A DNA stretch of 32,104 nt, from NCBI GenBank assembly GCA_003563375.1, contig PWSB01000204.1, positions 1-32,104 of the forward strand. The letters are read 5' to 3'. This document shows, piece by piece, positions 57-24,928 of the stretch (position 1 is its first letter; each line of letters starts with the position of its first letter). Below the pieces are notes generated by a model. It was not told where the DNA came from. It worked only from the letters and a program-made list of their open reading frames with translations, and did no database searches. The translations under genes were made by a program, and so were the position numbers. The DNA comes from Actinomycetota bacterium. GTDB taxonomy: Bacteria; Actinomycetota; Humimicrobiia; Humimicrobiales; Humimicrobiaceae.

Positions 57-638
57 ATGCTAAATAAGCTTTTTTCTTCAAAAACTAGAGTAGAAATCTT
101 GAAGTTATTTTTATTTAATGCAGATGATAGTTTCTACCAAAGGCAGATCTCCACTCTTACCTCTCAATCCATAAGGGGTGTTCAGCGTGAAATTGAAAAA
201 TTAAGTAAAATTGGTATTATTGAAAGCTCCATTCAGGGTAACAGGAATTACTATAAGTTAAATAGAGCTTGCCCCATAGTCCAGGACCTAAAAAATATTT
301 TTTTAAAAACTGTAGGAGTGGCAGAATTACTAAAGGAGAGTTTTTATCAAAAGGGAACCAGGATTGCATTCATCTATGGTTCTTTTGCTAAAGGAGAAGA
401 AAATCTTTTAAGTGATATTGACTTAATGGTTATAGGTGATATAACGTCCAAAGAACTTTCAAGAATTCTTTCCGGGCCTAAGCAAAAACTGATGCGGGAG
501 ATTAATTATGCGGTTTTTTCACCAAACGAATTTAGAGACAGGGCTCAGAACAAAGATCATTTTATAAATTCTATCCTAGATGATAAGAAGATATACATCA
601 TAGGAAATGAGGATGAACTTAGAGGAATTATTAAGTAG
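57..638 (+). CDS. Winged-HTH fused to a minimal nucleotidyltransferase (MNT-type, antitoxin-like)
   Basis: 193-aa ORF. The N-terminal wHTH-like segment is KTRVEILKLFLF...SIRGVQREIEKLSKIGII. The NTase motif is GSFAKGEENLLSDIDLMV (G-S...D-x-D). An SD-like AAGGAAG lies at 44-50, 6 nt before the ATG. Confidence 0.8.
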   Translation: MLNKLFSSKTRVEILKLFLFNADDSFYQRQISTLTSQSIRGVQREIEKLSKIGIIESSIQGNRNYYKLNRACPIVQDLKNIFLKTVGVAELLKESFYQKGTRIAFIYGSFAKGEENLLSDIDLMVIGDITSKELSRILSGPKQKLMREINYAVFSPNEFRDRAQNKDHFINSILDDKKIYIIGNEDELRGIIK

Positions 639-1050
639 GGGCAGGCTAAAGCGTCACAAAACTTCAAATAAAGAAATTCAAAACTTGCTTGCGCTTGCAA
701 GAAGAGATATAAAAGATGCAAAAGTTAGAGGACTTTCTTCAGACAGAAGATTTGCCTGTGCCTATAATGCTGTTCTCCAGCTTGCTACAATTATGATTTA
801 TTGTAAAGGATTCAGGCCTCAAGGAATTGGCCACCACTTTGTAGTATTTGAAACTATGAAAATAATAACTGGAACTGATTATCATGAATTGACCGATTAT
901 TTTGATTCCTGCCGGTCAAAAAGGAATATAACTGACTATGATTATGCAGGTGCAATTTCAGATTCAGAAGCAAAGGAGTTAATTGAAGAAGCAGAGAGAT
1001 TTTTAAAAATAACCCTGGACTGGCTCAAGAAAAATTGTAAGGAATTTTAA
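607..1050 (+). CDS. HEPN-domain protein (toxin-like partner of the MNT gene)
   Basis: 147-aa helical ORF that overlaps the upstream NTase gene by 32 nt (ATG 607, alternative ATG 613). The C-terminal segment CRSKRNITDYDY resembles the HEPN R-x4-[HY] motif. The NTase-then-HEPN gene order is typical of MNT/HEPN pairs. Confidence 0.65.
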   Translation: MRMNLEELLSRGRLKRHKTSNKEIQNLLALARRDIKDAKVRGLSSDRRFACAYNAVLQLATIMIYCKGFRPQGIGHHFVVFETMKIITGTDYHELTDYFDSCRSKRNITDYDYAGAISDSEAKELIEEAERFLKITLDWLKKNCKEF

Positions 1051-13298: not shown

Positions 13299-14561
13299 TT
13301 AGAGATATTTTGGCATCCAGTCCATTACCTGGTAGAAATTCTGATAAAAAATTTTATTGATATGATTTAATCCATATTTTATGGCCCCGACAATATGTGC
13401 ATTTTCCTTAAGTTTGGATGCGACGATCTTCACATTAAAAGGTGTTATGCAGTAAATTTCTTTTGTAAGTTTTTTTAAAAAACTTTCACCAAGAAGAAGG
13501 ACATTACCATTTATGATGATCAATTCTGTATCTATTATTGAAATAATAGAAGCGATTCCGATAGAAAGAATCTTTATAATTTGGTCATCTATTACTTTTT
13601 TTATAACCTTATTTTTATTATCCCTATAATTTCTACTTATTTCCTGGAAGTTCAGATCTTCAAAATTCTGAATACTTTTGGATTTTCTTAAGGCCTCATT
13701 GACGGCCTTAGTGATACCATGAATATCTACCTGGCTCTCAAATAAGCCTAGATCCATGGTGTTCTGTTGTAATTTTTTATTATCATAGTTTTTAGTTATG
13801 GGAAGATAGGATATTTCCCCCATCGCACCATTTTTCCCATCCACTATGTCCCCGTTAATAATAATCCCGGCACCTACACCACTTTCAATATCTATATATA
13901 CCAGGTCTTTAATATCTTTATAATATACCCATTGTTCCCCGATTGCCCCCAGGTTCACAGAGTTGTTTACTATAACGTCAAATCCATATTTATCTTCTAA
14001 AATATCTACAAGGTTTATCCCGCTCCAATCCTTTATATAAGGAGCTTTTATTATTTTATTTGATTTAGGGTCAACTATGCCATGGGTCCCTACGCTTATT
14101 ATTTTTACTTTTTTTGATATTTTATTTGACTTCTCCAATAAGTCATCGATTAGGTTAAAAATATAGTTTATGCTTTCCGCTCTATTCCTGCCGGGAAATT
14201 TTTCTTCCTTTTTACTATGGATAATTTTTCCTTTTAGATTTGCGATAGCGGCTTCTAGTTTTTCATAATGTATATCTAAAATCAGCATATATATCAAATC
14301 TTCATTTAATTTTAAAATTATAGGTTTCTTCCCGATTTTAGATTCAGCTTTTTTCTCCTCATACAGGACTTCCTTTAAAATAAGATAGTTTACAAGGTCA
14401 GATATTGTAGATTTGGGAAGGCCGGTCTCCCGGGCTATCTGCACCCTGGTAACGTTTTTTTTCTCTATCACCTTTTTAAGTATGAGGCCTATGTTCTGTT
14501 CCCTTAAAGATCGGTATTTAGCTTTTTTATTTTCTTTCTTAATTTTCTTTTCATTATTCAT
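13299..14561 (-). CDS. ROK-family transcriptional regulator (N-terminal wHTH plus ROK sugar-kinase-like domain)
   Basis: 420 aa. The wHTH is NVTRVQIARETGLPKSTISDLVNYL. The ROK core shows ISVGTHGIVD, NNSVNLGAIGE and GVGAGIIINGDIVDGKNGAMGEIS. The classical CxCGxxGC zinc motif is absent. Confidence 0.85.
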   Translation of the reverse strand: MNNEKKIKKENKKAKYRSLREQNIGLILKKVIEKKNVTRVQIARETGLPKSTISDLVNYLILKEVLYEEKKAESKIGKKPIILKLNEDLIYMLILDIHYEKLEAAIANLKGKIIHSKKEEKFPGRNRAESINYIFNLIDDLLEKSNKISKKVKIISVGTHGIVDPKSNKIIKAPYIKDWSGINLVDILEDKYGFDVIVNNSVNLGAIGEQWVYYKDIKDLVYIDIESGVGAGIIINGDIVDGKNGAMGEISYLPITKNYDNKKLQQNTMDLGLFESQVDIHGITKAVNEALRKSKSIQNFEDLNFQEISRNYRDNKNKVIKKVIDDQIIKILSIGIASIISIIDTELIIINGNVLLLGESFLKKLTKEIYCITPFNVKIVASKLKENAHIVGAIKYGLNHINKIFYQNFYQVMDWMPKYL

Positions 14562-14810
14562 TTTTTCTGGGGCAGGCTCAAAATAAATGGCAAAATCTTT
14601 GGGTCAATTATATATTAATTAATCCGAAATATGTACTAATTATTAATTTTTTAGAGAATACTAAGATAACAGTAAAATGTCATATATTTGATTGTGTTTG
14701 ATAATTTATTTTTGTTATGTTTTACTAATATAAATGAAATTTTAATATATAAATTATAAAATTCGCATATTCAAACTTTTGTTTGGGCATATATTTTTGG
14801 ATTAATTTAG

Positions 14811-16310
14811 ATGAAAGATAAATATATATTAAATAAATTTAGAAAATGCTTTGGCCAAACACTTAAAATATATGATTCCTCATTAGTTTCTCATTGTGGT
14901 AACAGGTTTTTTCTGGCTAAAGAAGGGCACCAAAAATTTTTATATATTATTGGAAATGAAGCTTATGGACGGCTGGAGGAATTTAGAGGCAAACCCATTG
15001 GGTCTATTGAAATAGACGGTTACGATTTAATAGCTGGAAAAGCGGAACTAAATCATATAAATCTTAAACTGATGCAGGAGATTTTCCCCCACCTTAATCC
15101 AAGCCTTTGCGGCCTAAAGCCATCATTTGGGACAGGGGACAGGCTGGGAATGGTAACCCCGGCACATGTAGGATCTTTTAGGGGAAGAAAAATATTTCCT
15201 TATTTCTGCCAGCAGTCGGTAAGGGAGTTAAATAAGACCGGCCGTTCTTGGCAGGAATCGATCAGGGATTCTATCTGGGGTGTATTTGAGGCCGGTTATA
15301 AAAATCCTTTCGGTGCTGATGCAGACCATGTTAAGGATATGGGAGATCTTAATGCTGCAATCAAAAATGGTTTTACGATGTTTACCATTGATCCTTCAGA
15401 TTTTATAGCAAACGGGCTTGGAAATGAAGAAAATAGGGAAATAAGCAAAAGATATGACTCTATTGTTGAAAAAAAAGAAATCGAGAGGTCCTATCTGGGA
15501 AAAAAAATAACCATTGGCAAAGAGGTACTGCAATTTGATTTAGATTCATTAAAATTTATTGCAGCCTGCTATTATGACGCTATAAAACATGTTGTAAAAT
15601 GTTATAAATTCATTGAAGAAAATAAGGAAGGTAATTTTGATTTTGAAGTTTCCATGGATGAAACAGAAAGTGCTATCTCGCCTCTGGCACACATATTCAT
15701 AACCGGTGAGCTCCAAAGGAACGAAGTAAACTTTCAGAACTTGGCACTCCGTTATCCGGGAGTATGGGAAAAAGCAGTAGATTACTGCGGTGATATTGAA
15801 GGATTCAGCAAAGAGCTGAAAACACATGCCCAAGTTGCTAAAAAATTTGGGCCATACAAGTTATCTCTTCATTCGGGAAGTGAAAAATTTTCTGTATTTC
15901 CTATTTTTTCTGAGGAGACCGGAGGGCTTTTTCATATAAAGACCTCAGGGACAAGCTGGCTTGAATCCCTAAGGACAATTGCTGCGGTAAACCCGGTCCT
16001 TTTTAAAGATATATATGATTATGCCCTTAACAATTATGAAGAAGAGAAAAAATCTTATCATATATCAACAGGCCTTTCATCTGTTCCAGCTATAACCAGG
16101 TTTAGCAGGGATGAGTATGGGGGCCTACTTGATAAAAAAGAGTGCCGGCAAATGCTGCATGTGACTTATGGCGCAATACTGACTGCAACAAAGCAAGAGA
16201 ATTATATTTTCAGGGATACTATTTATAAGGTATTGGATGAAAATGAGCCTGTTCACTACAGGCACATAACTGAAAATATAGATAAGCATCTTGACCTGGT
16301 AAGGATATAA
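14811..16310 (+). CDS. uxaE: UxaE-family sugar(-acid) 4-epimerase (tagaturonate/fructuronate epimerase-like)
   Basis: 499 aa. The length and motif pattern (SFGTGDRLG, FGADADHVK, SLHSGSEKF, HIKTSGTSWLE) match my recollection of the Thermotoga UxaE family. An SDR reductase and gnd follow, as in the Thermotoga cluster. Confidence 0.6.
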   Translation: MKDKYILNKFRKCFGQTLKIYDSSLVSHCGNRFFLAKEGHQKFLYIIGNEAYGRLEEFRGKPIGSIEIDGYDLIAGKAELNHINLKLMQEIFPHLNPSLCGLKPSFGTGDRLGMVTPAHVGSFRGRKIFPYFCQQSVRELNKTGRSWQESIRDSIWGVFEAGYKNPFGADADHVKDMGDLNAAIKNGFTMFTIDPSDFIANGLGNEENREISKRYDSIVEKKEIERSYLGKKITIGKEVLQFDLDSLKFIAACYYDAIKHVVKCYKFIEENKEGNFDFEVSMDETESAISPLAHIFITGELQRNEVNFQNLALRYPGVWEKAVDYCGDIEGFSKELKTHAQVAKKFGPYKLSLHSGSEKFSVFPIFSEETGGLFHIKTSGTSWLESLRTIAAVNPVLFKDIYDYALNNYEEEKKSYHISTGLSSVPAITRFSRDEYGGLLDKKECRQMLHVTYGAILTATKQENYIFRDTIYKVLDENEPVHYRHITENIDKHLDLVRI

Positions 16311-16346
16311 TAATCTTTAATATGTTTTTTAAGGAGATTTTTAAAA

Positions 16347-17168
16347 ATGATAGTTAAAAGTATTTTCGATCTAAAAGACAAAACAGCTGCTATTATAGGG
16401 GCAACAGGGTCTCTAGGTTTTTCAATTGCTGCAGGGCTAGCAGGTGCGGGAGCAAGGATTGCGGTATGCGGAAGATCCAATTACAGACAAAAAGCAGAAT
16501 CACTGGCAGGCAAAGGTATAGATGCAAAAGGTTATTATATCGATGTGATGGACAAGGATAAGATTATTCAATGTAGAAATAATATAATAGCTGATTTTAA
16601 GGGAGTCGATATTTTAGTAAATGCAGCAGGAGGGAATTTAAATGAAGCTACAACCAGCAGTGAGTTATCTTTTTTTGATCTAAAAAAAGAAAGCTTAAGC
16701 GAGGTAATAGATTTAAATCTCTTTGGCGGAGCCATACTCCCAGCCCAGGTATTTGGGAAAGAAATGGCAGAAAACAGTGGGGGAGGCTCGATTATCAATA
16801 TTTCTTCTATGAATGCTTTTAGGCCTCTTACTAAAATTCCAGGTTATTCTGCTGCCAAGGCAGCGGTATCAAATTTTACTCAGTGGCTCGCAGTACATTT
16901 TGCACAGGAATATAATAAAAACTTGAGAGTAAACGCCATAGCTCCTGGGTTTTTTTTAACCAGGCAGAATCATTATCTATTATTTGACAAGGAAGAAAAT
17001 CTTACAGAAAGGGGCCGGTCAATAATAGCCCATACCCCGATGGCTGGGTTTGGCAAGCCCGAAGACCTTGTTGGAGTATGCGTATGGCTTGCCTCTGAAG
17101 CTTCAAGATTTGTTACAGGCATAGTTATTCCTATAGATGGCGGTTTTAGCGCATATTCAGGGGTATGA
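16347..17168 (+). CDS. Short-chain dehydrogenase/reductase, YjmF/UxaD-like (fructuronate/mannonate oxidoreductase candidate)
   Basis: 273 aa. It has GATGSLG (cofactor binding), NAAGGNLNEATT, and a catalytic Ser...YSAAK triad segment. Confidence 0.75.
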   Translation: MIVKSIFDLKDKTAAIIGATGSLGFSIAAGLAGAGARIAVCGRSNYRQKAESLAGKGIDAKGYYIDVMDKDKIIQCRNNIIADFKGVDILVNAAGGNLNEATTSSELSFFDLKKESLSEVIDLNLFGGAILPAQVFGKEMAENSGGGSIINISSMNAFRPLTKIPGYSAAKAAVSNFTQWLAVHFAQEYNKNLRVNAIAPGFFLTRQNHYLLFDKEENLTERGRSIIAHTPMAGFGKPEDLVGVCVWLASEASRFVTGIVIPIDGGFSAYSGV

Positions 17169-17225
17169 CTACCTGTTTTTGAGTGATTTATGTAAGCAGT
17201 CATTTAAAATTGAAAGGAATTTAGG

Positions 17226-18704
17226 ATGGAAAAAAAAGATTTGGGCCTTATAGGCCTTGCGGTTATGGGTCAGAACCTTGTGCTTAATATAGAATCAAAA
17301 GGTTATTCTGCTGCAGTATACAACAGGACAGAAAGCAGGACAAAGGATTTTATTGAAGGAAAAGCAAAAGACAAAAATATAGAAGCCGCATTTTCTTTAA
17401 AAAAATTTGTGGACAGCATCAAAAGGCCAAGGAAAATCATGCTTATGGTAAAAGCCGGCAAGCCTGTAGACAATACCATTGAAGAAATCCTTCCCTTGCT
17501 TGAGCCGGGAGACCTTCTAATAGACGGGGGGAATTCATTTTATAAGGATACCATAAGAAGGGAGGAGTTTCTTTTAGAAAAAAATATCCTATACATAGGT
17601 ACCGGAGTTTCTGGCGGTGAGGAAGGGGCTCTTCTGGGTCCTGCCATTATGCCTGGAGGAAAGAGGAAGGCATATGATATGGTAAAAGATATATTTTCAG
17701 ATATTTCAGCAAAAGCAAAAGATGGCAAACCATGCGTATCTTATATAGGGCCAAATGGAGCCGGGCACTTTGTAAAGATGGTCCATAACGGGATCGAGTA
17801 CGGTGATATGCAGCTAATAGGAGAGTGCGTATGGGGTTTGAAGAATGCCCTTGGTTGGAATTCAGAACAAATTGCAGACATAATGGAAGAATGGGACAGG
17901 CCTTCTGACATATTATCCTCTTATCTTATAGAGATAACCGGCAAGGGGATGAGGGAGACCGAAAAGAAATCGGGAAGCTACCTGGTAGACAGGACCGCTG
18001 ATATTACCAGGATGAAGGGGACAGGCACATGGACGGTTGCAAGCGCTCTTGAGCTGCTTGTTCCAATACCTACAATAGCAGCAGCGGTATTTTCAAGGGA
18101 AACGAGCCAGGATAAGGACTTGAGGCTTGGGATTTCAAAGATATTGAAGCCGGCGGCTTCTAAAATAGATTTAAACGGGCAAAAATTCACTGATATAGCC
18201 CACGACGCCCTGTATATTGCCAAAATCTCTTCATACGCCCAAGGTTTTGCACTAATGGAGGCAGCGTCTTCTAAATACGGCTGGAACCTTGATATGGGAA
18301 GGATTGCCGAAGGTTGGAGAGCTGGATGCATAATACGGGCACAGTTTCTATCAAAGATCACTGAAGAATACAAGGCAGATCCAAAATTGCCCAATCTTAT
18401 GGCAGCGCCTTATTTTTCTAAATTTATCAACCAGAAACTTGTAAGCCTTTCAAGGTTTATTGAGGTTGCCCGCCATGTTGGAGTGCCTGCTCTTGCGATG
18501 GGGTGTGCTTATGACTACATACTTCAGATAGCCTCTCCTGTCATGGTATCAGCGCAGGTAGCCGCCCAGCAGAGGGACTACTTCGGCGCTCACGGCTATT
18601 TTAAGCTTAAGGATTCCCAAGAGATAGAGCTAAAACCTGATGGAAGCTACCAGGAATATCATACAGAATGGATGGAGGATGGCCGCCCGGAAAAAAAGTT
18701 ATAG
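17226..18704 (+). CDS. gnd: 6-phosphogluconate dehydrogenase, decarboxylating
   Basis: 492 aa. It shows GLIGLAVMGQNLVLN, GGNSFY, GTGVSGGEEGA, GAGHFVKMVHNGIEYGDMQLI and QRDYFGAHGY. Confidence 0.9.
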   Translation: MEKKDLGLIGLAVMGQNLVLNIESKGYSAAVYNRTESRTKDFIEGKAKDKNIEAAFSLKKFVDSIKRPRKIMLMVKAGKPVDNTIEEILPLLEPGDLLIDGGNSFYKDTIRREEFLLEKNILYIGTGVSGGEEGALLGPAIMPGGKRKAYDMVKDIFSDISAKAKDGKPCVSYIGPNGAGHFVKMVHNGIEYGDMQLIGECVWGLKNALGWNSEQIADIMEEWDRPSDILSSYLIEITGKGMRETEKKSGSYLVDRTADITRMKGTGTWTVASALELLVPIPTIAAAVFSRETSQDKDLRLGISKILKPAASKIDLNGQKFTDIAHDALYIAKISSYAQGFALMEAASSKYGWNLDMGRIAEGWRAGCIIRAQFLSKITEEYKADPKLPNLMAAPYFSKFINQKLVSLSRFIEVARHVGVPALAMGCAYDYILQIASPVMVSAQVAAQQRDYFGAHGYFKLKDSQEIELKPDGSYQEYHTEWMEDGRPEKKL

Positions 18705-18730
18705 AAAAAATACTGATTTAGGAGGCTGAT

Positions 18731-19810
18731 ATGACAAGTGAGTTTCGCAAAGACTGCAAATATAGCCTGATTACACCTACAAGCATAGGGGTCCGCATCA
18801 CTCCAGCAGGCAGGCAGCCGGTTGATTGCAGTTCAACTTTTTTTATGCAGACTACCAGTGCCGAGACCAATGTCGCAAGCGTGTCTTCTTATTTGGGCTT
18901 GCCCGTAAAAGTTCTTACTGTATTTGTAAAAGACAGTCCTATTTCAAAAATGATAAAAAGCAATCTAATGTCAAGAAATATGTCCTTTGAAGGCAAGGAT
19001 GTTTTCCAGGGGGGGCCATGGGGATACCGCCACCAGTTCAACATTGCTGACAGCGGTTATGGCTCCCGGCGCCCCAGGGTCCAAAATGACCGCGCTGGGG
19101 AAGTTGGCAGGATACTGAACACAGAGGATTTTGACCTGGATAGGATTTTTAATAGTGAGGGAGTTTCCATCCTCCACCTTTCGGGTCTTATCGTCTCCCT
19201 ATCCAGGCAGACAGGAAGCTTTTGCAGCAAGTTGGCCAAAGCTGCAAAGGAGAGCGGGACAAAGATTTGCTTTGATCTAAACTACAGGGCTTCATTTTGG
19301 AAGAACCGGGAAGATGAGCTTGGTAAAACCTTTTCCCGTATTGCACAACTTACAGATTACCTTGTGGGCAATGAGGAGGACTTCCAGCTCTGTCTTGGCT
19401 TAAAGGGCCCTGAGGCCGGTGGGAGGAAATTGTCCTCAAAGATTGAAAGCTTTAAGGAAATGATAAAGGATGTAAGGGAAAAATATCCCAGTACATCTGT
19501 TTTTGCCACGACCCTTAGAGAGGTGGTCAATGCAAATCGCCATCTATGGGGTGCAATAATGCTTGAAGGTGAAAGTTGGCATGTAATAGAACCGCGTGCA
19601 ATTGAGGTTATAGACCGGATAGGGGGCGGTGACGGATTTGTGGGGGGAATGCTTTACGGCATACTGAAGGGCTGGGAGCCTGAAAAGTGGATACAATTCG
19701 GCTGGGCATCCGGAGCATTCGTAGCTACCCTGATTACAGATTATGCTACTCCTGCAGACGAAGAACAGATATGGGATATCTGGCGCGGAAACGCAAGGGT
19801 CAGGCGTTAA
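18731..19810 (+). CDS. PfkB-family sugar-acid kinase (2-keto-3-deoxygluconate kinase-like)
   Basis: 359 aa. It has the C-terminal PfkB signature RIGGGDGFVGGMLYG and LVGNEEDF. Its overall layout resembles the long KdgK-type kinases. SD AGGAGG lies upstream. Confidence 0.7.
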   Translation: MTSEFRKDCKYSLITPTSIGVRITPAGRQPVDCSSTFFMQTTSAETNVASVSSYLGLPVKVLTVFVKDSPISKMIKSNLMSRNMSFEGKDVFQGGPWGYRHQFNIADSGYGSRRPRVQNDRAGEVGRILNTEDFDLDRIFNSEGVSILHLSGLIVSLSRQTGSFCSKLAKAAKESGTKICFDLNYRASFWKNREDELGKTFSRIAQLTDYLVGNEEDFQLCLGLKGPEAGGRKLSSKIESFKEMIKDVREKYPSTSVFATTLREVVNANRHLWGAIMLEGESWHVIEPRAIEVIDRIGGGDGFVGGMLYGILKGWEPEKWIQFGWASGAFVATLITDYATPADEEQIWDIWRGNARVRR

Positions 19811-19816
19811 AGCCTT

Positions 19817-21100
19817 ATGAGATTTATTGAAGATATAAACGGTATAGGCAAAGGTAAGCTTACCGGATTCATAGCTTCTATTTTAGAAGGTATAAATCCA
19901 GGCAAAAAGGTACTTGTGATCATTCCAGATTATACAAGGGTTGATTTCACGGATATAATCTGTCCCCTTATTGTAGATATTTTTAAAAAGAAAGGGGCCA
20001 TAAACTTAGATTTTCTAAATGCTGGTGGAACTCATAGGGGGATGACAGAGACTGAATTTTTTTTAAAACTTGGCCTGAAGGAGAAAGACTCAAGCATATC
20101 TTTTTATAACCATGATTACAGTGACCCCAAGAACCTGGTAACCATTGGGAGCATCTCTTTAGAACTTGTTAAAGAAAAAACGGAGGGCCAGCTTCGCAGG
20201 GCGATACCTGTGACATTGAATAAATTAATATTTTCTGGTTACAACACTATTATTGCAGTCTCCGGTACCGGGCCGCATGAAGCAGCTGGCTACTCGGGGG
20301 GCCTGAAGATTTTTTTTCCAGGCATATCAGGTCCTGAAGTGATTGACCTATTTCATTGGGCAGCTGTACTAGTGGGAATACCCGAAATTATGGGTACTGT
20401 AGACAATAATGCAAGGGATATAATCAACGAGGGGGCGGGACTTATATTTAATGGCATAGGTTGTGATGTTTTTACTTTGAATATGGTGAGTACAGAGGAA
20501 GACCGTTCAGTAATACCTAATGGCCTGTATTTGGACAAAGGTTATGAGGGTTTTTTAAATGTTTACAGGGCTGCCGCTGCTTTAAGCTCTAAACTTCATA
20601 TCAAATACATTGACCGGCCGCTTGAACGGGTGGTACAAGTAATCCCGGAGCACTTGGACGAGATCTGGACTGCTGCAAAAGGTTCATACAAACTACAGAA
20701 GCCCGGTGTAATGGCGAAGGGGGGTGAAATAATCCTGTACGGGCCGCATATAAGGAGCTTTCACTCCAATAAAAAAATAGATGAAGAACTCAAGGAAGTA
20801 GGTTATCACTGCAAAGATAAAATCTGCAGCATATTAGGCTCTGGAAAAAAAATAAGCAGAAAAAGCGCTTCTCATCTTATTAATGCAGCAGGACCTGGCA
20901 GATTTGACCCTGAAGCTAAAAAAGAAGAGATGGACTTTAAGCTTACCCTTGCGACCCAGATTCCCATGCAAGCCTGTAAGTCGATAGGATTAAATTACCG
21001 AGACCCAAAAACTATAAATAGATCTGATTTTCAAAAACCAGGTAGACTCTGGATCGAAAAAGGGGGAAAATATCTTTATATGCGAAAAAAAGGGGGGTGA
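19817..21100 (+). CDS. LarA-like (DUF2088) nickel-pincer-cofactor-type 2-hydroxyacid racemase/epimerase homologue
   Basis: 427 aa. It has IIPDYTRVD and NAGGTHRG (His73). In GPHEAAGYSGGLKIFFPG...FH, residues His154, Lys164 and His180 reproduce the H-x9-K-x15-H spacing of the LarA catalytic His, the cofactor-tethering Lys and the Ni-binding His (recalled as H174/K184/H200 in L. plantarum LarA). Confidence 0.7.
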   Translation: MRFIEDINGIGKGKLTGFIASILEGINPGKKVLVIIPDYTRVDFTDIICPLIVDIFKKKGAINLDFLNAGGTHRGMTETEFFLKLGLKEKDSSISFYNHDYSDPKNLVTIGSISLELVKEKTEGQLRRAIPVTLNKLIFSGYNTIIAVSGTGPHEAAGYSGGLKIFFPGISGPEVIDLFHWAAVLVGIPEIMGTVDNNARDIINEGAGLIFNGIGCDVFTLNMVSTEEDRSVIPNGLYLDKGYEGFLNVYRAAAALSSKLHIKYIDRPLERVVQVIPEHLDEIWTAAKGSYKLQKPGVMAKGGEIILYGPHIRSFHSNKKIDEELKEVGYHCKDKICSILGSGKKISRKSASHLINAAGPGRFDPEAKKEEMDFKLTLATQIPMQACKSIGLNYRDPKTINRSDFQKPGRLWIEKGGKYLYMRKKGG

Positions 21101-21168: not shown

Positions 21169-21930
21169 ATGGACAAGGAATTTACTCTTTTTAAAGACAC
21201 CGTATCAGGTATTCTGGAAAAAATAACAGGTGAAGAAAAAAATATAAAAAAAGCTGCAGATTTAATTGCCAAAGCCTTGATAAAGGGCAAAATAATCCAC
21301 GTAATCGGAACCGGGGGCCATTCTAATATGGGAGCTGAGGAGATGTTCTGGAGAGCAGGAGGATTGATCCCGGTCAATGCTATATTGGATGCCGGAATAA
21401 ATTTGATCAATGGAGCAAGAAGGACCACTATAATAGAAAGGACACCAGGCTATGGAATAAAGGTGATGGATGCATACAATGTCGGCCAAACTGCCGGTGA
21501 GGTTATTATTATCATAAACGCCTGCGGTATTAACACCATGACCATAGATGTTGCGCTGGAGGCAAAAAAGAGAAAGATGAAGACCATAGGGGTGACTTCA
21601 ACTTCTTTTGCAGACACGATCCCGAAAGGCCATCCGTCCAGGCACCCGAGCAATAAGAATCTGCATGATCTTGTCGATGTTTTTATAAATAATCACCAGC
21701 CCATAGGGGATGCAGTTATAGAGCTTGAAGGTGCAGACCAGAAGGTGGGTCCTGTATCTACTATTTGCAATTCATTTGCAGTGCAGCTGTTAGTAATAGA
21801 GACTGCAAAAAAGATGATAGAATCCGGGAAAAAACCTTTGATATGGAGGAGTGCCAATATGCCGGGAGGAGATGAGGCTAACCGTGAATATTTTAAAGAG
21901 TATTCTAAAAGGATAAAGCATCTGCTGTAA
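21169..21930 (+). CDS. Single-SIS-domain protein, UPF0309-like
   Basis: 253 aa. The pattern IKKAADLIAKALIKGKIIHVIGTGGHSNMGAEEMFWRAGGLIPVNAI is typical of the UPF0309/SIS_2 group. Confidence 0.7.
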   Translation: MDKEFTLFKDTVSGILEKITGEEKNIKKAADLIAKALIKGKIIHVIGTGGHSNMGAEEMFWRAGGLIPVNAILDAGINLINGARRTTIIERTPGYGIKVMDAYNVGQTAGEVIIIINACGINTMTIDVALEAKKRKMKTIGVTSTSFADTIPKGHPSRHPSNKNLHDLVDVFINNHQPIGDAVIELEGADQKVGPVSTICNSFAVQLLVIETAKKMIESGKKPLIWRSANMPGGDEANREYFKEYSKRIKHLL

Positions 21931-21990: not shown

Positions 21991-22956
21991 ATGAAAAAGC
22001 GGATCACAAGAGATAATGAGCCTGGTTTTGTTTTTGATTACAATAAAGAACCCGTGCTCACGGTAGAGGAAGGAGAAAGTTTTATAGTTGAGACCGAGGA
22101 CAACCTGTCAGGGCTTATCAAATCAGAAAATGATCCCCTGGTCGAAAAGCTTAAAAATTTTACCAAATATGATCCTCCAAAGTTTAATCCTGTCCATGGA
22201 CCCATATATATAAAAGGCGCTGCTAAAGGAGATCTTCTGGAAGTAAGCATTGAGAAAATAATACCTGCCCAAACAGGTATTTCAGCTATAGACCCAGATT
22301 CAGGGCCTCTTTCTGAAAACAAAAAATGGCCGGAGCTTGGGGAAGCTCATATAAAGATCTTAAAAAATATCCCTGGTCCCAGCGGCACTACCAGGGACGG
22401 AAAGGCTGTCTACAGTAAAAACATCTCCTGGGACCTAGACCCTATGATAGGGACAATCGGAGTGGCTACAGAATATGAGATACATGGTACATTAAATGGC
22501 CAGAAACCTTGTTGCGGCAATTGGGATTGCAAAGATATCAAAGAAGGAAGCAAGTTATATCTAAATTGCTTCCATGAGGGGGCCCTCCTTTTCCTTGGAG
22601 ATGTACATGCCAGCCAGGGGGACACAGAGTGGAGCTGTTCTGCCAATGAGGTGAAAGCAGAAGTCACGTTAAGCTGCAGGGTTATCAAGAATAAGAAAAT
22701 CCCCTATGCAAGGATAGAAAGAGAGGAATCGATTATCCAATTATTTGCGGATAAGCCTATAGAGGATGCATTACATAGGGCTATAATCCATCTTATGGAA
22801 TGGATGGTCGAAGAATACGGGGTAGGTCCAAAGGATGCTTATATAATGATCTCATGTAGTTCTGAGTTCAAAGTAAAGGTTTACCAAATGATAAGGAGCC
22901 CAAATCTTCCTTACGTTGTCGGAGCAGAAATACCAAGAAAATATCTGAAGGGATAA
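21991..22956 (+). CDS. Acetamidase/formamidase-family amidohydrolase (FmdA_AmdA)
   Basis: 321 aa. It has NPVHGPIYIKGAAKGDLLEVSI and CGNWDCKDIKEGSKLYLNCFHEGALLFLGDVHASQGDTE, which match the family core (GGN.D...G..lylPV...GAl...GD.HA.QGDGE). Confidence 0.75.
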   Translation: MKKRITRDNEPGFVFDYNKEPVLTVEEGESFIVETEDNLSGLIKSENDPLVEKLKNFTKYDPPKFNPVHGPIYIKGAAKGDLLEVSIEKIIPAQTGISAIDPDSGPLSENKKWPELGEAHIKILKNIPGPSGTTRDGKAVYSKNISWDLDPMIGTIGVATEYEIHGTLNGQKPCCGNWDCKDIKEGSKLYLNCFHEGALLFLGDVHASQGDTEWSCSANEVKAEVTLSCRVIKNKKIPYARIEREESIIQLFADKPIEDALHRAIIHLMEWMVEEYGVGPKDAYIMISCSSEFKVKVYQMIRSPNLPYVVGAEIPRKYLKG

Positions 22957-23003: not shown

Positions 23004-24134
23004 ATGAAATATGAATGCTTGTGCCGTATTCCAAGCAGGACCGGGATATTTAAATTAATATATGGTGATGGCAAAATCAAATCGCTAAAGCCTGTGGAGG
23101 CTTTGAATGTGACAGAGTATGATATCCTTTGGCTTACTGCGGGCTTATTTGATATGCAGGTAAATGGTATGATGGGACATTTCCTATCTTCAGATGATTT
23201 AAATGTCAAAAAAATCTTAGAGATTGACAGAGAACTTGAAAAAAGAGGGACTCTGTTTTGGTGTCCAACCATTTGCACTCAAGAAACCAGGATTGTCAAA
23301 AAAAACTTAAAAATATTGAAAAGGGCAATTGAGCAAAAAACGCGGACCGGGATTTTTGGTATTCACATGGAAGGCCACTACATATCAGATTTAGAAGGCT
23401 ATAGAGGCGTTCATTCTCCTGAGTACATAAGGGATCCAGACATTGGTGAATTTAATGAATGGCAAGAAGCCTCCGGAGGCAATATAAGGCTCTTTTCACT
23501 AGCACCAGAAAGAAATGGGGGTATCGATTTTATTAAATATTTGAGAAATCAAGGCATAAAGGCCGGCTTGGCTCATCATTCTGCAGAATACAGCTTGATC
23601 CTGGAAGCAGTAGCTATGGGAGCAGACCTGGCCACGCATTTGATCAATGGCTGTGTTCCTTTCATACACAGGCAGCATAATGTGATATGGTCTCAGTTAT
23701 CAATAGATGAGTTGTGGGCTAGTTTTATTGCAGACGGCCATCACATCCCGCATTATACTTTAAGAGCTGCAATAAAAGCAAAAGGCACCAATAGGTCAAT
23801 ACTGATATCTGACCTATTTTATCTTTCAGGTTTACCCGAAGGGACGTATATATCGGAATCAAATAGGAAGGAAGTAATACTTAAAGACGATGGTTTATGG
23901 ATAAAGGATGAAGATATGTTATGTGGGGCCGCAAAGACCTTGGACAGGGGAGTTGAGTTTATTGCAAGGTATTGCAACTTCAGTATTGAAGATGCCCTGG
24001 TAATGGCTTCAATAAATCCAGCCCTTTATTTTGGGATTGAAGATAAGATGATGATCTACCCGGGCAGAAAAGGGCCCTTAGCAGTATTTGCCTGGAAGAA
24101 TAATAAGCTAGAAGTCGAAAAAATCTTAAAGTGA
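23004..24134 (+). CDS. NagA/AgaA-like amidohydrolase (N-acetylhexosamine-6-phosphate deacetylase family, mononuclear Q-x-N subtype)
   Basis: 376 aa. It has FDMQVNG (Gln52/Asn54 replace the H-x-H pair, as in E. coli NagA), HMEGHY, LAHHS, THLINGC, ADGHHIP and LISD. SD GAGGAAG lies upstream. Confidence 0.7.
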   Translation: MKYECLCRIPSRTGIFKLIYGDGKIKSLKPVEALNVTEYDILWLTAGLFDMQVNGMMGHFLSSDDLNVKKILEIDRELEKRGTLFWCPTICTQETRIVKKNLKILKRAIEQKTRTGIFGIHMEGHYISDLEGYRGVHSPEYIRDPDIGEFNEWQEASGGNIRLFSLAPERNGGIDFIKYLRNQGIKAGLAHHSAEYSLILEAVAMGADLATHLINGCVPFIHRQHNVIWSQLSIDELWASFIADGHHIPHYTLRAAIKAKGTNRSILISDLFYLSGLPEGTYISESNRKEVILKDDGLWIKDEDMLCGAAKTLDRGVEFIARYCNFSIEDALVMASINPALYFGIEDKMMIYPGRKGPLAVFAWKNNKLEVEKILK

Positions 24135-24151
24135 CAACTGCTTATCATTTC

Positions 24152-24928
24152 TCATATTATTCTTGAAGCTGATTCCATATCTAAAAACAACTTGGCCTTT
24201 TTAGTCTTACGAAGGATTGAAGCAGGAAACTTAGGGTCTACAGGTTTATTTAAAGTTGAATATACAGCCCCTGACTTTCTGCTTTCGGGGACAATGCAAA
24301 ATATTCTTTTTGCTGCCAGTAATCCCGGAATTGTGACAGAAATCGCATGAGTGGGGACATCCTTTATAGATTTGAAATGCCCCTCGTTGATCTGTTGCTG
24401 ACGGCTTTTCTCTTCCAGTTTTACAACCTTTACCCAAACAGGATCTTCAAAATCTGCAACACCGGGTTCATTAAATGCAAGATGCCCGTTTTCACCTATA
24501 CCTGCGCAACAGACATCTATGGGATGGGCTTTAAGCAGATATTCATAACCTCTGCAGGCAGTTTCTGGATCTTGGGGATGACCAGGGACAGGGAAAAACG
24601 AACTTACATTAGCATGACGCAAAAAATTTTTTTTCAAATATGATGAAAAACTGGCGGGGTGTTCAAAGGGTAGATCAAGATATTCATCTAAATGGAAAAT
24701 ATTTACGGCGGGCCAATAAATATCTTTTATTTTGGTCAATTTCTTTAAAAAGCTTAGCTGTGAATTGCCTGTGGCCAGCATTATGTTTGCGATGTTTTTA
24801 CTACTGATAGCCTCTTTTATAGCGGCAGCGGCTTCTTCTGCTGCAGCTTCACCCATTTGCTGGTTTGTTTGATATATCTCTATGCTTAGATCATCGACTG
24901 TCTTTTCGTGCAATAAACCAGTCCCCAT
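24152..24928 (-). CDS. nagB: Glucosamine-6-phosphate deaminase
   Basis: 258 aa. It has LATGNSQ, HLDEY and GIGENGHLAFNEPG. SD AAGGAGG lies on the minus strand just upstream of the start. Confidence 0.85.
   Translation of the reverse strand: MGTGLLHEKTVDDLSIEIYQTNQQMGEAAAEEAAAAIKEAISSKNIANIMLATGNSQLSFLKKLTKIKDIYWPAVNIFHLDEYLDLPFEHPASFSSYLKKNFLRHANVSSFFPVPGHPQDPETACRGYEYLLKAHPIDVCCAGIGENGHLAFNEPGVADFEDPVWVKVVKLEEKSRQQQINEGHFKSIKDVPTHAISVTIPGLLAAKRIFCIVPESRKSGAVYSTLNKPVDPKFPASILRKTKKAKLFLDMESASRII

What the first reader, a model, noticed from the sequence alone, without database searches (positions are those of the whole stretch)
14811..21100. UxaE-like / SDR / gnd / PfkB kinase / LarA-like block: a hexuronate-to-pentose-phosphate route with a non-orthologous kinase
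Seen in sequence: five co-directional genes are separated by gaps of 6-57 nt. Established knowledge (recalled from memory): in Thermotoga maritima, UxaE (tagaturonate-fructuronate epimerase) and an SDR fructuronate reductase sit next to gnd, a gluconate kinase and a DUF2088/LarA-like gene proposed to interconvert mannonate and gluconate. LarA homologues with D-gluconate 2-epimerase activity have also been reported. Inference: this block may run tagaturonate -> fructuronate -> mannonate -> gluconate -> 6-phosphogluconate -> ribulose-5-P. The differences are what make it interesting. The kinase here is a 359-aa KdgK-like PfkB enzyme rather than a GntK-type kinase. No uxaC, uxuA or KDPG aldolase gene is present in the window. 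The regulator is ROK-family rather than GntR/KdgR-type. The block also continues directly into amide-hydrolase genes.
Basis: partly seen in the sequence, partly recalled or inferred. Interest (0 to 1): 0.6.

Follow-up and report, generated by a model that had tools for sequence, protein, structure and literature searches.

The report
Sugar-acid operon with an unusual kinase
Five adjacent genes encode a route, first proposed for Thermotoga and only partly tested by experiment, that turns keto-uronic sugar acids into pentose phosphate through a nickel-dependent epimerase; here it uses an uncharacterised kinase family instead of the usual gluconate kinase, in a bacterium where no known enzyme for the usual first step was found.

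Summary
Five co-directional genes lie 36, 57, 26 and 6 nt apart: UxaE, an SDR mannonate oxidoreductase, Gnd, a 359-aa PfkB kinase and a LarA homologue. The LarA homologue matches T. maritima GntE2 (PDB 4NAR) over its full length. GntE2 is an assayed D-mannonate/D-gluconate 2-epimerase.

The kinase belongs to a large, unnamed family that is well conserved across phyla. In 30 loci from many phyla, Gnd accompanies it in 18, a LarA-type hexonate epimerase in 13 and UxaC in 7. Four genomes that carry it also have a separate KdgK beside KDPG aldolase. It is therefore a KdgK paralogue, most likely a gluconate 6-kinase (possibly a mannonate kinase).

I found no UxaC, Bh0493-type isomerase, KDPG aldolase, Zwf or recognisable GntK in the source genome or in a 97%-complete same-genus genome with the same operon.

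The block runs on, with no terminator, into SIS, amidase and NagA-like genes. An amino-uronate feed is possible, but my own test in 399 genomes did not show it to be general.

This scan met the LarA/Gnd/kinase module before on other DNA. Verdict: a new variant of a known kind.

The parts
13299..14561 (-). Divergent ROK-family (NagC/Mlc-like) putative regulator
   Evidence: PF00480 107 bits. The best NCBIfam match is NagC at 97 bits, far below its cut-off of 650. No homologue was detected in the 930 nt upstream of the block in G033, so its link to the operon is uncertain.
14562..14810 (.). 249-nt divergent intergenic region, the presumed promoter/operator of the operon
   Evidence: It is the only long gap before the eight-gene + strand run. 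Only weak promoter-like matches were found. It was not analysed further.
14811..16310 (+). UxaE: tagaturonate/fructuronate epimerase
   Evidence: PF16257 547 bits over profile positions 1-474 of 475. 471 bits to PDB 9LHW and 325 bits to Cohnella UxaE 6IL9. Single copy in the genome.
16347..17168 (+). SDR fructuronate reductase (D-mannonate oxidoreductase type)
   Evidence: NF006132 342 bits, cut-off 281. Best PDB match 4WUV at 217 bits; TM0441-type 1VL8 only 116 bits. The same NF006132 type (404-443 bits) sits in the four LarA-bearing kinase loci whose SDR was scored.
17226..18704 (+). Gnd: decarboxylating 6-phosphogluconate dehydrogenase
   Evidence: NF006765 587 bits (cut-off 413) and TIGR00873 563 bits (cut-off 427). 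It is the only Gnd in the genome. No Zwf was found in G000, G008 or G033.
18731..19810 (+). 359-aa PfkB-family kinase, a KdgK paralogue; predicted D-gluconate (or D-mannonate) 6-kinase
   Evidence: PF00294 70 bits. KdgK model NF052444 scores only 32 bits against a cut-off of 400. Best PDB matches are 4GM6 and 2AFB at 114-118 bits. Gnd lies near it in 18 of 30 loci. It forms a clade separate from the Eda-adjacent KdgKs. Asn104 and Asn119 replace tyrosines of the KdgKs compared, and the Gly-Gly lid motif is lost.
19817..21100 (+). GntE-type nickel-pincer (NPN) D-mannonate/D-gluconate 2-epimerase (LarAH group 20)
   Evidence: 461 bits to PDB 4NAR (TM0442/GntE2), query residues 14-424 against chain residues 14-423. 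His73, His154, Lys164 and His180 align with LarA His108, His174, Lys184 and His200; Asp38 and Arg41 align with Asp72 and Arg75. LarC and LarE are adjacent in G008, and G000 has a LarC fragment.
21169..21930 (+). SIS_2 (UPF0309-type) sugar-isomerase-domain protein, probably co-transcribed; possible entry enzyme
   Evidence: PF13580 121 bits; NF002805 240 bits. It follows the epimerase gene after a 68-nt gap with no terminator. Conserved in G008 and G033 at 83%.
21991..22956 (+). Small FmdA/AmdA-family amidase
   Evidence: PF03069 97 bits. Found in only 7 of 61 related genomes, counting G000.
23004..24134 (+). NagA-like deacetylase, last gene of the + strand run
   Evidence: TIGR00221 206 bits, below its cut-off of 226. 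One of four NagA homologues in the genome.
24152..24928 (-). Convergent NagB-like deaminase/isomerase
   Evidence: PF01182 77 bits. TIGR00502 131 bits, below its cut-off of 237. It is the only NagB homologue in the genome. Its position is conserved in G008 and G033.

Best explanation
The five genes are the lower part of a hexuronate catabolic route that ends in the pentose-phosphate pathway rather than in KDG and KDPG. UxaE epimerises D-tagaturonate to D-fructuronate. The SDR reduces fructuronate to D-mannonate. The GntE-type nickel-pincer enzyme inverts C2 to give D-gluconate. The PfkB kinase phosphorylates C6 to give 6-phosphogluconate. Gnd decarboxylates that to ribulose-5-phosphate. Supported by homology to assayed or solved enzymes: the identities of UxaE, GntE and Gnd. 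Inferred from family membership: the reductase step. Inferred from gene context and residue changes: the kinase's substrate. The kinase is a KdgK paralogue that stands in for the FGGY GntK of Thermotoga. The five genes are probably co-transcribed with three downstream genes (SIS, amidase, NagA-like), and how tagaturonate or fructuronate is supplied remains unsettled.
For: Enzyme identities. Enzymology of the GntE2 orthologue: free D-mannonate, Km 17 mM, kcat 197 per s (PMC7583248). Link between kinase and Gnd: Gnd is present in 18 of 30 kinase loci from Planctomycetota, Clostridia, Bacilli, Bacteroidia, Spirochaetota, KSB1 and Actinomycetota; 17 are co-directional and 14 lie within 200 nt. The Gnd genes scored are bona fide (TIGR00873 712-761 bits). 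A hexonate-type LarA is present in 13 of 30 loci, of LarAH group 18 in the four loci that cleared the NF052594 cut-off and of group 20 here, so one kinase pairs with different epimerase groups. UxaC is present in 7 of 30 loci, and one block contains a transketolase. The kinase is not the cell's KdgK: in 4 genomes KDPG aldolase sits beside a different PfkB kinase only 26-32% identical to this one, and the tree places the two on either side of a very long branch. Support for gluconate as the substrate: 2 of 5 genomes with a kinase/Gnd pair have no Lar_N gene at all. In one of them the neighbouring SDR best matches glucose 1-dehydrogenase, whereas the SDR is a mannonate oxidoreductase in the four LarA-bearing loci scored. 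Gnd-only and LarA-linked kinases are intermixed in the tree. Gnd has no other source of substrate here: no Zwf in G000, G008 or G033. No P-loop GntK was found over the cut-off, and the best FGGY candidate in G000 is XylB at 574 bits. The cofactor genes LarC and LarE are present in G008.
Against: No member of the kinase family has been assayed, so its substrate rests on context alone. One locus (L016) places the kinase directly after UxuA, which would suit a KDG kinase. The glucose 1-dehydrogenase call for L030 comes from a permissive subfamily model (225 bits against a cut-off of 215). The source genome has 13 FGGY paralogues, none over the GntK cut-off but not all examined. No known source of tagaturonate was found: neither the UxaC type nor the Bh0493 type of isomerase. 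GntE2's Km of 17 mM for mannonate is high and leaves room for a different native substrate.
Confidence: 0.7

Rival explanations
1. Same genes, opposite order, as in Lactobacillus suebicus. The PfkB kinase is a D-mannonate 6-kinase, and the LarA-like enzyme epimerises 6-phosphomannonate to 6-phosphogluconate.
For: Valk et al. 2020 (PMC6978723) showed this order in cell extracts and could not assign the genes. [quoted passage not shown] No later paper in the library assigns the genes. GntE2's Km for free mannonate is high at 17 mM, and 6-phosphomannonate is not among the substrates reported as tested. Phosphatases (PHP, His_Phos_1, ARMT1-like) recur inside these operons, which fits a kinase that makes more than one phospho-hexonate.
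Against: The GntE2 orthologue does turn over free mannonate at 197 per s. Kinase/Gnd pairs occur in genomes with no LarA homologue, and there a mannonate-6-phosphate product would be a dead end. Gnd-only and LarA-linked kinases are intermixed in the tree. Valk et al. attributed the L. suebicus activity to gluconate-kinase homologues and do not mention PfkB.
Confidence: 0.17
2. The kinase is an ordinary KDG kinase of the classical Ashwell route, and its place beside Gnd and LarA is incidental.
For: Public sources auto-annotate the family as 2-dehydro-3-deoxygluconokinase. Its nearest solved relatives include TM0067 KdgK (2AFB, 114 bits). In L016 it follows UxuA.
Against: No KDPG aldolase was found in G000 or G008, and no credible UxuA in G000. 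KdgK model NF052444 scores 32 bits against a cut-off of 400. Four genomes carry a separate KdgK beside Eda. None of the recurrent gene clusters near the kinase in the 30 loci that I annotated is a KDPG aldolase, while 18 loci have Gnd. Two tyrosines conserved in the KdgKs compared are Asn in all 33 family members.
Confidence: 0.04
3. The route is as in the best explanation, but it is fed from plain galacturonate or glucuronate by an unrecognised uronate isomerase. Candidates are the co-transcribed SIS_2 protein or one of the Amidohydro_2 paralogues. On this reading the NagA and NagB genes serve ordinary amino-sugar use.
For: The Pfam UxaC model already misses one real isomerase type: the Bh0493-type enzyme (600 bits to PDB 2Q08) sits next to UxaE in 4 of 18 'UxaC-less' genomes. 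G008 and G000 encode 432-aa Amidohydro_2 proteins with faint UxaC similarity, two of them near SIS_2 paralogues. SIS domains catalyse aldose-ketose isomerisation (established knowledge). The NagB-like gene is the genome's only NagB homologue and may be housekeeping.
Against: No SIS-type or Amidohydro_2-type uronate isomerase of this kind is known to me. The G008 protein shows no significant similarity to Bh0493.
Confidence: 0.25

Closest known systems
Thermotoga maritima gnd-uxaR-uxaE-uxaD-gntE-gntK cluster (Rodionova et al. 2012; Rodionov et al. 2013, PMC3750489)
   Same: It has the same proposed chemistry from tagaturonate to ribulose-5-P. UxaE, GntE (LarAH group 20, PDB 4NAR) and Gnd have close counterparts here.
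   Different: The kinase is PfkB-fold here and FGGY-fold there. The reductase is of the NF006132 type, not the TM0441 type. The neighbouring regulator is ROK-family, not GntR. No UxaC, UxuA/KdgK/KdgA branch or pectinase genes were found. Three amino-sugar-type genes are attached.
LarAH group 18 operons (NCBIfam NF052594 'putative hexonate epimerase'; Desguin et al. 2020, Table S1)
   Same: They share the same kinase family, a bona fide Gnd, an NF006132-type SDR and often UxaC. Table S1 lists Gnd (32%) and a ribokinase-family kinase (16%) beside group 18.
   Different: The epimerase here belongs to group 20 (167 bits to the group 18 model, cut-off 500). Desguin et al. did not assay a group 18 enzyme, whereas they did assay group 20.
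KdgK, 2-keto-3-deoxygluconate kinase (PDB 2AFB, 1V19/1V1A)
   Same: Both have the ribokinase/PfkB fold. The catalytic G-G-G-D motif (Asp301) is kept, as is the D-R pair aligned with T. thermophilus residues 104 and 105.
   Different: Identity to the Eda-adjacent KdgKs of kinase-bearing genomes is about 26-32%. The Gly-Gly lid motif is replaced, a P-W-G insertion lies at 96-98, and Asn104 and Asn119 stand where the KdgKs compared have Tyr. The family is never seen beside KDPG aldolase in the loci examined.
Lactobacillus suebicus mannonate kinase / 6-phosphomannonate 2-epimerase pathway (Valk et al. 2020, PMC6978723)
   Same: It is also a redox-neutral link from the isomerase pathway to 6-phosphogluconate.
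   Different: The order of the kinase and epimerase steps is reversed, and its genes are unassigned. Which order applies here is untested.

Membership tests
UxaE tagaturonate/fructuronate epimerase (PF16257) | Full-length match to the family model and to solved UxaE enzymes | tested here: met
   547 bits over profile positions 1-474 of 475. 471 bits to 9LHW and 325 bits to 6IL9.
UxaE tagaturonate/fructuronate epimerase (PF16257) | Epimerase activity on tagaturonate/fructuronate, with the metal and catalytic residues in place | not tested
   I did not map the active-site residues. Activity needs an assay.
GntE / LarAH group 20 (NPN-dependent D-gluconate 2-epimerase) | Close full-length similarity to the assayed enzyme GntE2 (TM0442, PDB 4NAR) | tested here: met
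   461 bits, query residues 14-424 against chain residues 14-423. Activity of GntE2: PMC7583248.
GntE / LarAH group 20 (NPN-dependent D-gluconate 2-epimerase) | The two catalytic His, the NPN-tethering Lys and the Ni-ligand His of LarA | tested here: met
   His73, His154, Lys164 and His180 align with LarA His108, His174, Lys184 and His200 through the 2YJG alignment.
GntE / LarAH group 20 (NPN-dependent D-gluconate 2-epimerase) | NPN cofactor biosynthesis genes (larB, larC, larE) in the genome | tested here: inconclusive
   G000 has only a LarC fragment at a contig end. G008 has LarC and LarE side by side, and G033 has LarC. LarB was not searched.
GntE / LarAH group 20 (NPN-dependent D-gluconate 2-epimerase) | Published group 20 context: SDR, FGGY kinase and GntR regulator | tested here: not met
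   Table S1 gives SDR 100%, COG1070 kinase 86% and GntR 86%. Here an SDR is present, but the kinase is PfkB-fold and the neighbouring regulator is ROK-family.
Gnd, decarboxylating 6-phosphogluconate dehydrogenase | Score above the curated equivalog cut-offs | tested here: met
   NF006765 587 bits (cut-off 413) and TIGR00873 563 bits (cut-off 427).
SDR D-mannonate oxidoreductase (NF006132) | Score above the curated subfamily cut-off | tested here: met
   342 bits against a cut-off of 281.
Thermotoga UxaD (TM0441-type SDR fructuronate reductase) | Orthology-level similarity to TM0441 (taking PDB 1VL8 to be TM0441, from memory) | tested here: not met
   1VL8 scores 116 bits, against 217 bits for 4WUV.
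KdgK (2-dehydro-3-deoxygluconokinase) | Score above the KdgK equivalog cut-off | tested here: not met
   NF052444 32 bits (cut-off 400); NF041332 90 bits (cut-off 440).
KdgK (2-dehydro-3-deoxygluconokinase) | Genomic partnership with KDPG aldolase | tested here: not met
   No Eda hit in G000 or G008. In 4 other genomes Eda pairs with a different PfkB kinase.
KdgK (2-dehydro-3-deoxygluconokinase) | The tyrosines at the positions aligned with T. thermophilus Tyr103 and the upstream Tyr (I recall them as KDG contacts) | tested here: not met
   Asn119 and Asn104 occupy these positions in at least 32 of the 33 family members. Asn119 aligns with Tyr in 1V19, 2AFB and 4GM6; Asn104 aligns with Tyr in 2AFB and 4GM6; three Eda-adjacent KdgKs also have Tyr at both positions. 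Their role as ligand contacts is from memory and was not verified.
PfkB / ribokinase superfamily | Family model match and the C-terminal G-x-G-D catalytic motif | tested here: met
   PF00294 70 bits (cut-off 25.8). D295-R-I-G-G-G-D301 is conserved.
PfkB / ribokinase superfamily | N-terminal Gly-Gly lid-hinge motif | tested here: not met
   The family reads T-T-S-A-E-T-N where the KdgKs read G-G-A-E-A-N.
Known gluconate kinases (FGGY TIGR01314; P-loop TIGR01313) | FGGY fold or P-loop fold | tested here: not met
   The protein has the PfkB fold. So, if it is a gluconate kinase, it would be a third, analogous type.

The most novel reading that the evidence does not exclude
The eight co-transcribed genes plus the convergent NagB-like gene form one complete pathway, not yet described, for an N-acetyl-hexosaminuronic acid such as N-acetylgalactosaminuronate from bacterial surface polymers. 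The NagA-like enzyme (and/or the small amidase) would remove the acyl group. The NagB-like or SIS enzyme would deaminate and isomerise the unphosphorylated amino-uronate to tagaturonate or fructuronate, doing the job of UxaC. The five-gene block would then carry the product to ribulose-5-P, using a third, PfkB-type class of gluconate kinase.
Probability: 0.27. Interest if true: 0.75.

Novelty: new variant of a known kind. Interest (0 to 1): 0.5.

Why it matters
The route from mannonate through gluconate to 6-phosphogluconate converts uronic acids to pentose phosphate without net use of redox cofactors, which makes it attractive for fermenting pectin-rich waste (PMC6978723). Its kinase step has no assigned gene outside Thermotoga, and the genes for the L. 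suebicus mannonate kinase and 6-phosphomannonate epimerase are still unknown.

The 359-aa PfkB family identified here is a concrete and very widespread candidate. Assaying one member would correct a large number of annotations and would also settle the order of the kinase and epimerase steps.

This window is also a clean test case for a second question: what feeds UxaE when neither known uronate isomerase is present? In a sample of 399 genomes, 20 of the 33 with UxaE lack a Pfam-detectable UxaC.

Tried and rejected
I used `genome search` and `fetch from genomes` instead.

2. The metagenome scan with UxaE returned one weak locus and was uninformative.

3. The C. thermocellum 'PfkB' paper describes a fructokinase and is irrelevant here.

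4. The marginal UxuA hit on C103 (25.9 bits) has no NCBIfam match at E of 1e-15 or better, so I rejected it as a mannonate dehydratase.

5. The best FGGY 'gntK' candidate in G000 (C58) is XylB at 574 bits. The window's own FGGY kinase also best matches XylB.

6. I tested the idea that NagA/NagB-like genes generally accompany UxaE where UxaC is missing. In ±8 kb around UxaE in 30 genomes of the class of L019's genome, they appear in 1 of 18 UxaC-less genomes (the seed itself) and in 1 of 12 UxaC-positive genomes. The link is therefore not general in that sample.

7. L019's NagA scores as a canonical nagA (249 bits against a cut-off of 226), so that adjacency may be coincidental.

8. The weak UxaC-like ORF on G008 contig C71 is not a Bh0493-type isomerase. 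It belongs to the Amidohydro_2 family and its function is unknown.

9. The two UxaE homologues in G030 (35-36% identical) sit in ABC-transporter/URO-D operons and say nothing about this block.

10. I did not run structure prediction of the kinase, because the tools return no coordinates or ligand contacts that could separate gluconate from KDG.

Full report
**Observation**

The window (contig C239 of a 1.50-Mb, 240-contig, 84.8%-complete genome) carries five + strand ORFs at 14811-16310, 16347-17168, 17226-18704, 18731-19810 and 19817-21100. The gaps between them are 36, 57, 26 and 6 nt.

Profile searches identify the five products:
- UxaE (PF16257, 547 bits).
- An SDR of the D-mannonate oxidoreductase subfamily (NF006132, 342 bits against a cut-off of 281).
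- Bona fide Gnd (NF006765, 587 bits against a cut-off of 413).
- A PfkB-family kinase (PF00294, 70 bits).
- A LarA homologue (Lar_N, 82 bits).

The + strand run continues with gaps of 68, 60 and 47 nt into a SIS_2 protein, a small FmdA/AmdA-type amidase and a NagA-like deacetylase. A convergent NagB-like gene and a divergent ROK-family gene lie at the two ends. No terminator-like site lies in any intergenic gap, and the count of such sites in the region is at chance level.

**The well-anchored enzymes**

The LarA-like protein matches PDB 4NAR at 461 bits over its whole length. Desguin et al. 2020 identify 4NAR as GntE2 (TM0442, LarAH group 20). They showed that it epimerises D-mannonate to D-gluconate with the nickel-pincer cofactor (Km 17 mM, kcat 197 per s; PMC7583248).

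Through the alignment with lactate racemase 2YJG, the window's His73, His154, Lys164 and His180 correspond to LarA His108, His174, Lys184 and His200. Asp38 and Arg41 correspond to Asp72 and Arg75.

The same-genus genome G008 has LarC and LarE side by side, and the source genome has a LarC fragment at a contig end.

UxaE scores 471 bits against solved tagaturonate/fructuronate epimerases.

The SDR is not an orthologue of the Thermotoga reductase structure 1VL8 (116 bits, against 217 bits for 4WUV). It does belong to the same NF006132 type found in the other kinase loci that carry LarA and whose SDR I scored (404-443 bits).

**The kinase**

This is the real point of interest. Its best solved relatives are 4GM6 and the T. 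maritima KdgK 2AFB, at only 114-118 bits. The KdgK equivalog model scores 32 bits against a cut-off of 400.

The family is very large and well conserved. The listed hits from about the 10th down to the 120th are still 71-78% identical. Sources name them only 'sugar kinase' or, automatically, '2-dehydro-3-deoxygluconokinase'.

I examined 30 loci from species-representative genomes of many phyla, where the kinase is 59-72% identical to the window's. The neighbours are as follows:

| Neighbour | Loci (of 30) | Notes |
|---|---|---|
| Gnd | 18 | 17 co-directional, 14 within 200 nt |
| LarA homologue | 13 | all co-directional |
| SDR | 8 | |
| UxaC | 7 | |
| UxaE | 3 | |
| UxuA | 1 | locus L016 |

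The four neighbouring Gnd genes that I scored are canonical (TIGR00873, 712-761 bits). Of the five neighbouring LarA homologues scored, four belong to NF052594, that is LarAH group 18 (573-662 bits against a cut-off of 500); the fifth, in L008, falls below that cut-off. So the same kinase is recruited alongside at least two different hexonate-type epimerase groups. One block (L008) even contains a transketolase.

Desguin's Table S1 already lists Gnd (32%) and a ribokinase-family kinase (16%) beside group 18. For group 20 it lists an FGGY kinase (86%) and a GntR regulator (86%). The window is therefore a hybrid: a group 20 epimerase with the kinase that usually accompanies group 18.

**It is not the cell's KDG kinase**

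Four of five kinase-bearing genomes that I searched have a KDPG aldolase elsewhere in the genome. In each case the aldolase sits beside a different PfkB kinase that is only 26-32% identical to this family. In a tree, the 359-aa kinases form one tight clade separated by a very long branch from three of those KdgKs.

The family also carries a signature:
- The Gly-Gly lid motif is replaced (T-T-S-A-E-T-N against G-G-A-E-A-N).
- A P-W-G insertion lies at residues 96-98.
- Asn104 and Asn119 stand where the three Eda-adjacent KdgKs, 2AFB and 4GM6 have Tyr; Asn119 also aligns with Tyr103 of T. thermophilus KdgK (1V19).
- The neighbouring Arg121 (aligned with Arg105 of T. thermophilus KdgK) and the catalytic G-G-G-D301 motif are kept.

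I recall those tyrosines as KDG contacts but could not verify that in the library. If so, a change to Asn would suit a fully hydroxylated hexonate.

**Gluconate or mannonate?**

Two of five genomes with a kinase/Gnd pair have no Lar_N homologue anywhere. In one of them (L030) the adjacent SDR best matches glucose 1-dehydrogenase rather than mannonate oxidoreductase; the model behind that call is permissive. Gnd-only and LarA-linked kinases are intermixed in the tree. The GntE2 orthologue acts on free mannonate. Together these favour epimerase first, then a gluconate 6-kinase.

The reverse order was demonstrated in L. suebicus extracts, with the genes still unassigned (PMC6978723). It remains a live rival, particularly given GntE2's high Km and the phosphatases that recur in these operons.

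- In the source genome I found no UxaC, no KDPG aldolase and no credible UxuA.
- I also found no Zwf and no P-loop GntK over the cut-off. The best FGGY candidate is a xylulokinase.
- Gnd, the kinase, LarA, UxaE and NagB are all single-copy.
- The same-genus genome G008 (97% complete) and G033 (another genus of the family, 69% complete) carry the identical nine-gene arrangement at 69-85% identity.
- Neither G008 nor G033 has UxaC or Zwf. G008 also has no Eda, which was not searched in G033.
- The kinase occurs in only 2 of 41 related genomes searched, plus G033. Gnd and the kinase are richer in G+C (0.44-0.48) than UxaE, the SDR and the ROK gene (0.32-0.40). The block was therefore probably acquired horizontally.
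- With no Zwf, Gnd can only be serving this operon.

**What feeds UxaE?**

Other notes of this scan propose that NagA/NagB-like enzymes convert N-acetyl-amino-uronates to tagaturonate. I treated those notes as leads and tested the idea on 399 genomes from the class of L019's genome.

- UxaE occurs in 33 of them. Only 13 of those have a Pfam-detectable UxaC.
- Within ±8 kb of UxaE, NagA/NagB-like genes appear in just 1 of 18 UxaC-less genomes, which is my seed L019, and in 1 of 12 UxaC-positive genomes.
- Instead, 4 of the 18 'UxaC-less' genomes carry, right next to UxaE, a 416-aa protein that matches the Bh0493-type uronate isomerase at 600 bits (PDB 2Q08). The Pfam UxaC model does not detect it.
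- That second isomerase type is also absent from G000, from 60 relatives including G008 and G033, and from L019's genome.
- G008 and G000 encode uncharacterised 432-aa Amidohydro_2 proteins with faint UxaC similarity. Two of them lie near SIS_2 paralogues, on G000 contig C204 and G008 contig C13.

The entry step is therefore open. It may be an amino-uronate deacetylase and deaminase module, an unrecognised isomerase (the SIS_2 or Amidohydro_2 proteins), or uptake of a keto-uronate.

**Comparison, novelty and provenance**

The chemistry is that of the Thermotoga proposal. It is backed by experiment for UxaE and GntE and is curated by NCBIfam for group 18. The differences here are:
- the PfkB kinase;
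- the NF006132-type reductase;
- no GntR regulator in the window, with a ROK gene as neighbour instead;
- the lack of either known uronate isomerase and of the KDG branch;
- the attached SIS, amidase and NagA genes.

I found no paper in the library that describes a PfkB-type gluconate or mannonate kinase or a catabolic route for galactosaminuronic acid.

This scan had already met the LarA/Gnd/kinase module in at least 8 other genomes, and kinase look-alikes in 41 other windows. The finding is therefore a new variant of a known kind.

No claim here rests on the genomes flagged as unpublished (G051, G067). The organism appears to be an uncultured bacterium that NCBI labels Actinomycetota. This rests on an 83%-identical kinase, P0004, which lies on a contig of 33,925 nt, the same length as G008 contig C13.

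Noticed in passing
L104-L107 (for example L107:5172-6422): A Bh0493-type uronate isomerase (600 bits to PDB 2Q08) lies next to UxaE and a mannitol-dehydrogenase-type reductase in 4 genomes. The Pfam UxaC model PF02614 does not detect it, so 'no UxaC' calls based on Pfam alone can be wrong.
   Followed up: yes
399 genomes of the class of L019's genome: UxaE is present in 33 genomes, and 20 of these have no PF02614 UxaC. After allowing for the 4 with the Bh0493 type, most still have no identified source of tagaturonate.
   Followed up: partly
G000 C204:2252-3514, G000 C225:10333-10557, L055:1114-2412, L048:67-570: These are 432-aa Amidohydro_2 proteins with faint UxaC similarity and unknown function. 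Those on G000 contig C204 and G008 contig C13 lie near SIS_2 paralogues. They are candidates for a third kind of sugar-acid isomerase or for a lactonase.
   Followed up: partly
L013:4998-6492; L019:13427-14320: Phosphatase genes (PHP, histidine-phosphatase, ARMT1-like 'damage-control' type) sit inside LarA/Gnd/kinase operons, and other notes of the scan report the same. They may clear a mis-phosphorylated hexonate.
   Followed up: no
L030:7748-12588: In a genome with no LarA homologue, the locus reads: glucose-1-dehydrogenase-like SDR, Nramp-family transporter, the kinase, then Gnd. It looks like a glucose-to-gluconate shunt into the pentose-phosphate pathway.
   Followed up: partly
window 17226-19810: Gnd and the kinase have G+C of 0.44-0.48 (GC3 0.43-0.48), against 0.32-0.40 for the ROK gene, UxaE and the SDR. 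This fits horizontal acquisition of the core, or strong constraint on it.
   Followed up: partly
window 14791-14810: No Shine-Dalgarno-like purine run precedes the UxaE start codon, whereas most of the other genes in the run have a recognisable one. The Pfam match begins at residue 21, so the true start may lie downstream.
   Followed up: no
L072, L073 (G030 contig C4): A related genome has two UxaE-family paralogues (35-36% identical) inside ABC-transporter/URO-D-like operons, and has neither the kinase nor UxaC. They probably act on a different substrate.
   Followed up: no
window 57-1050: A nucleotidyltransferase gene and an overlapping HEPN-domain gene lie at the start of the window. This resembles a toxin-antitoxin-type pair.
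   Followed up: no
L008:740-11080: A KSB1/Deferribacteres-labelled genome has KduD, UxaC, UxaE, transketolase, Gnd, a LarA homologue that is below the group 18 cut-off (181 bits) and only 34% identical to the window's, and then the kinase. This may represent a third epimerase group paired with the same kinase.
   Followed up: partly
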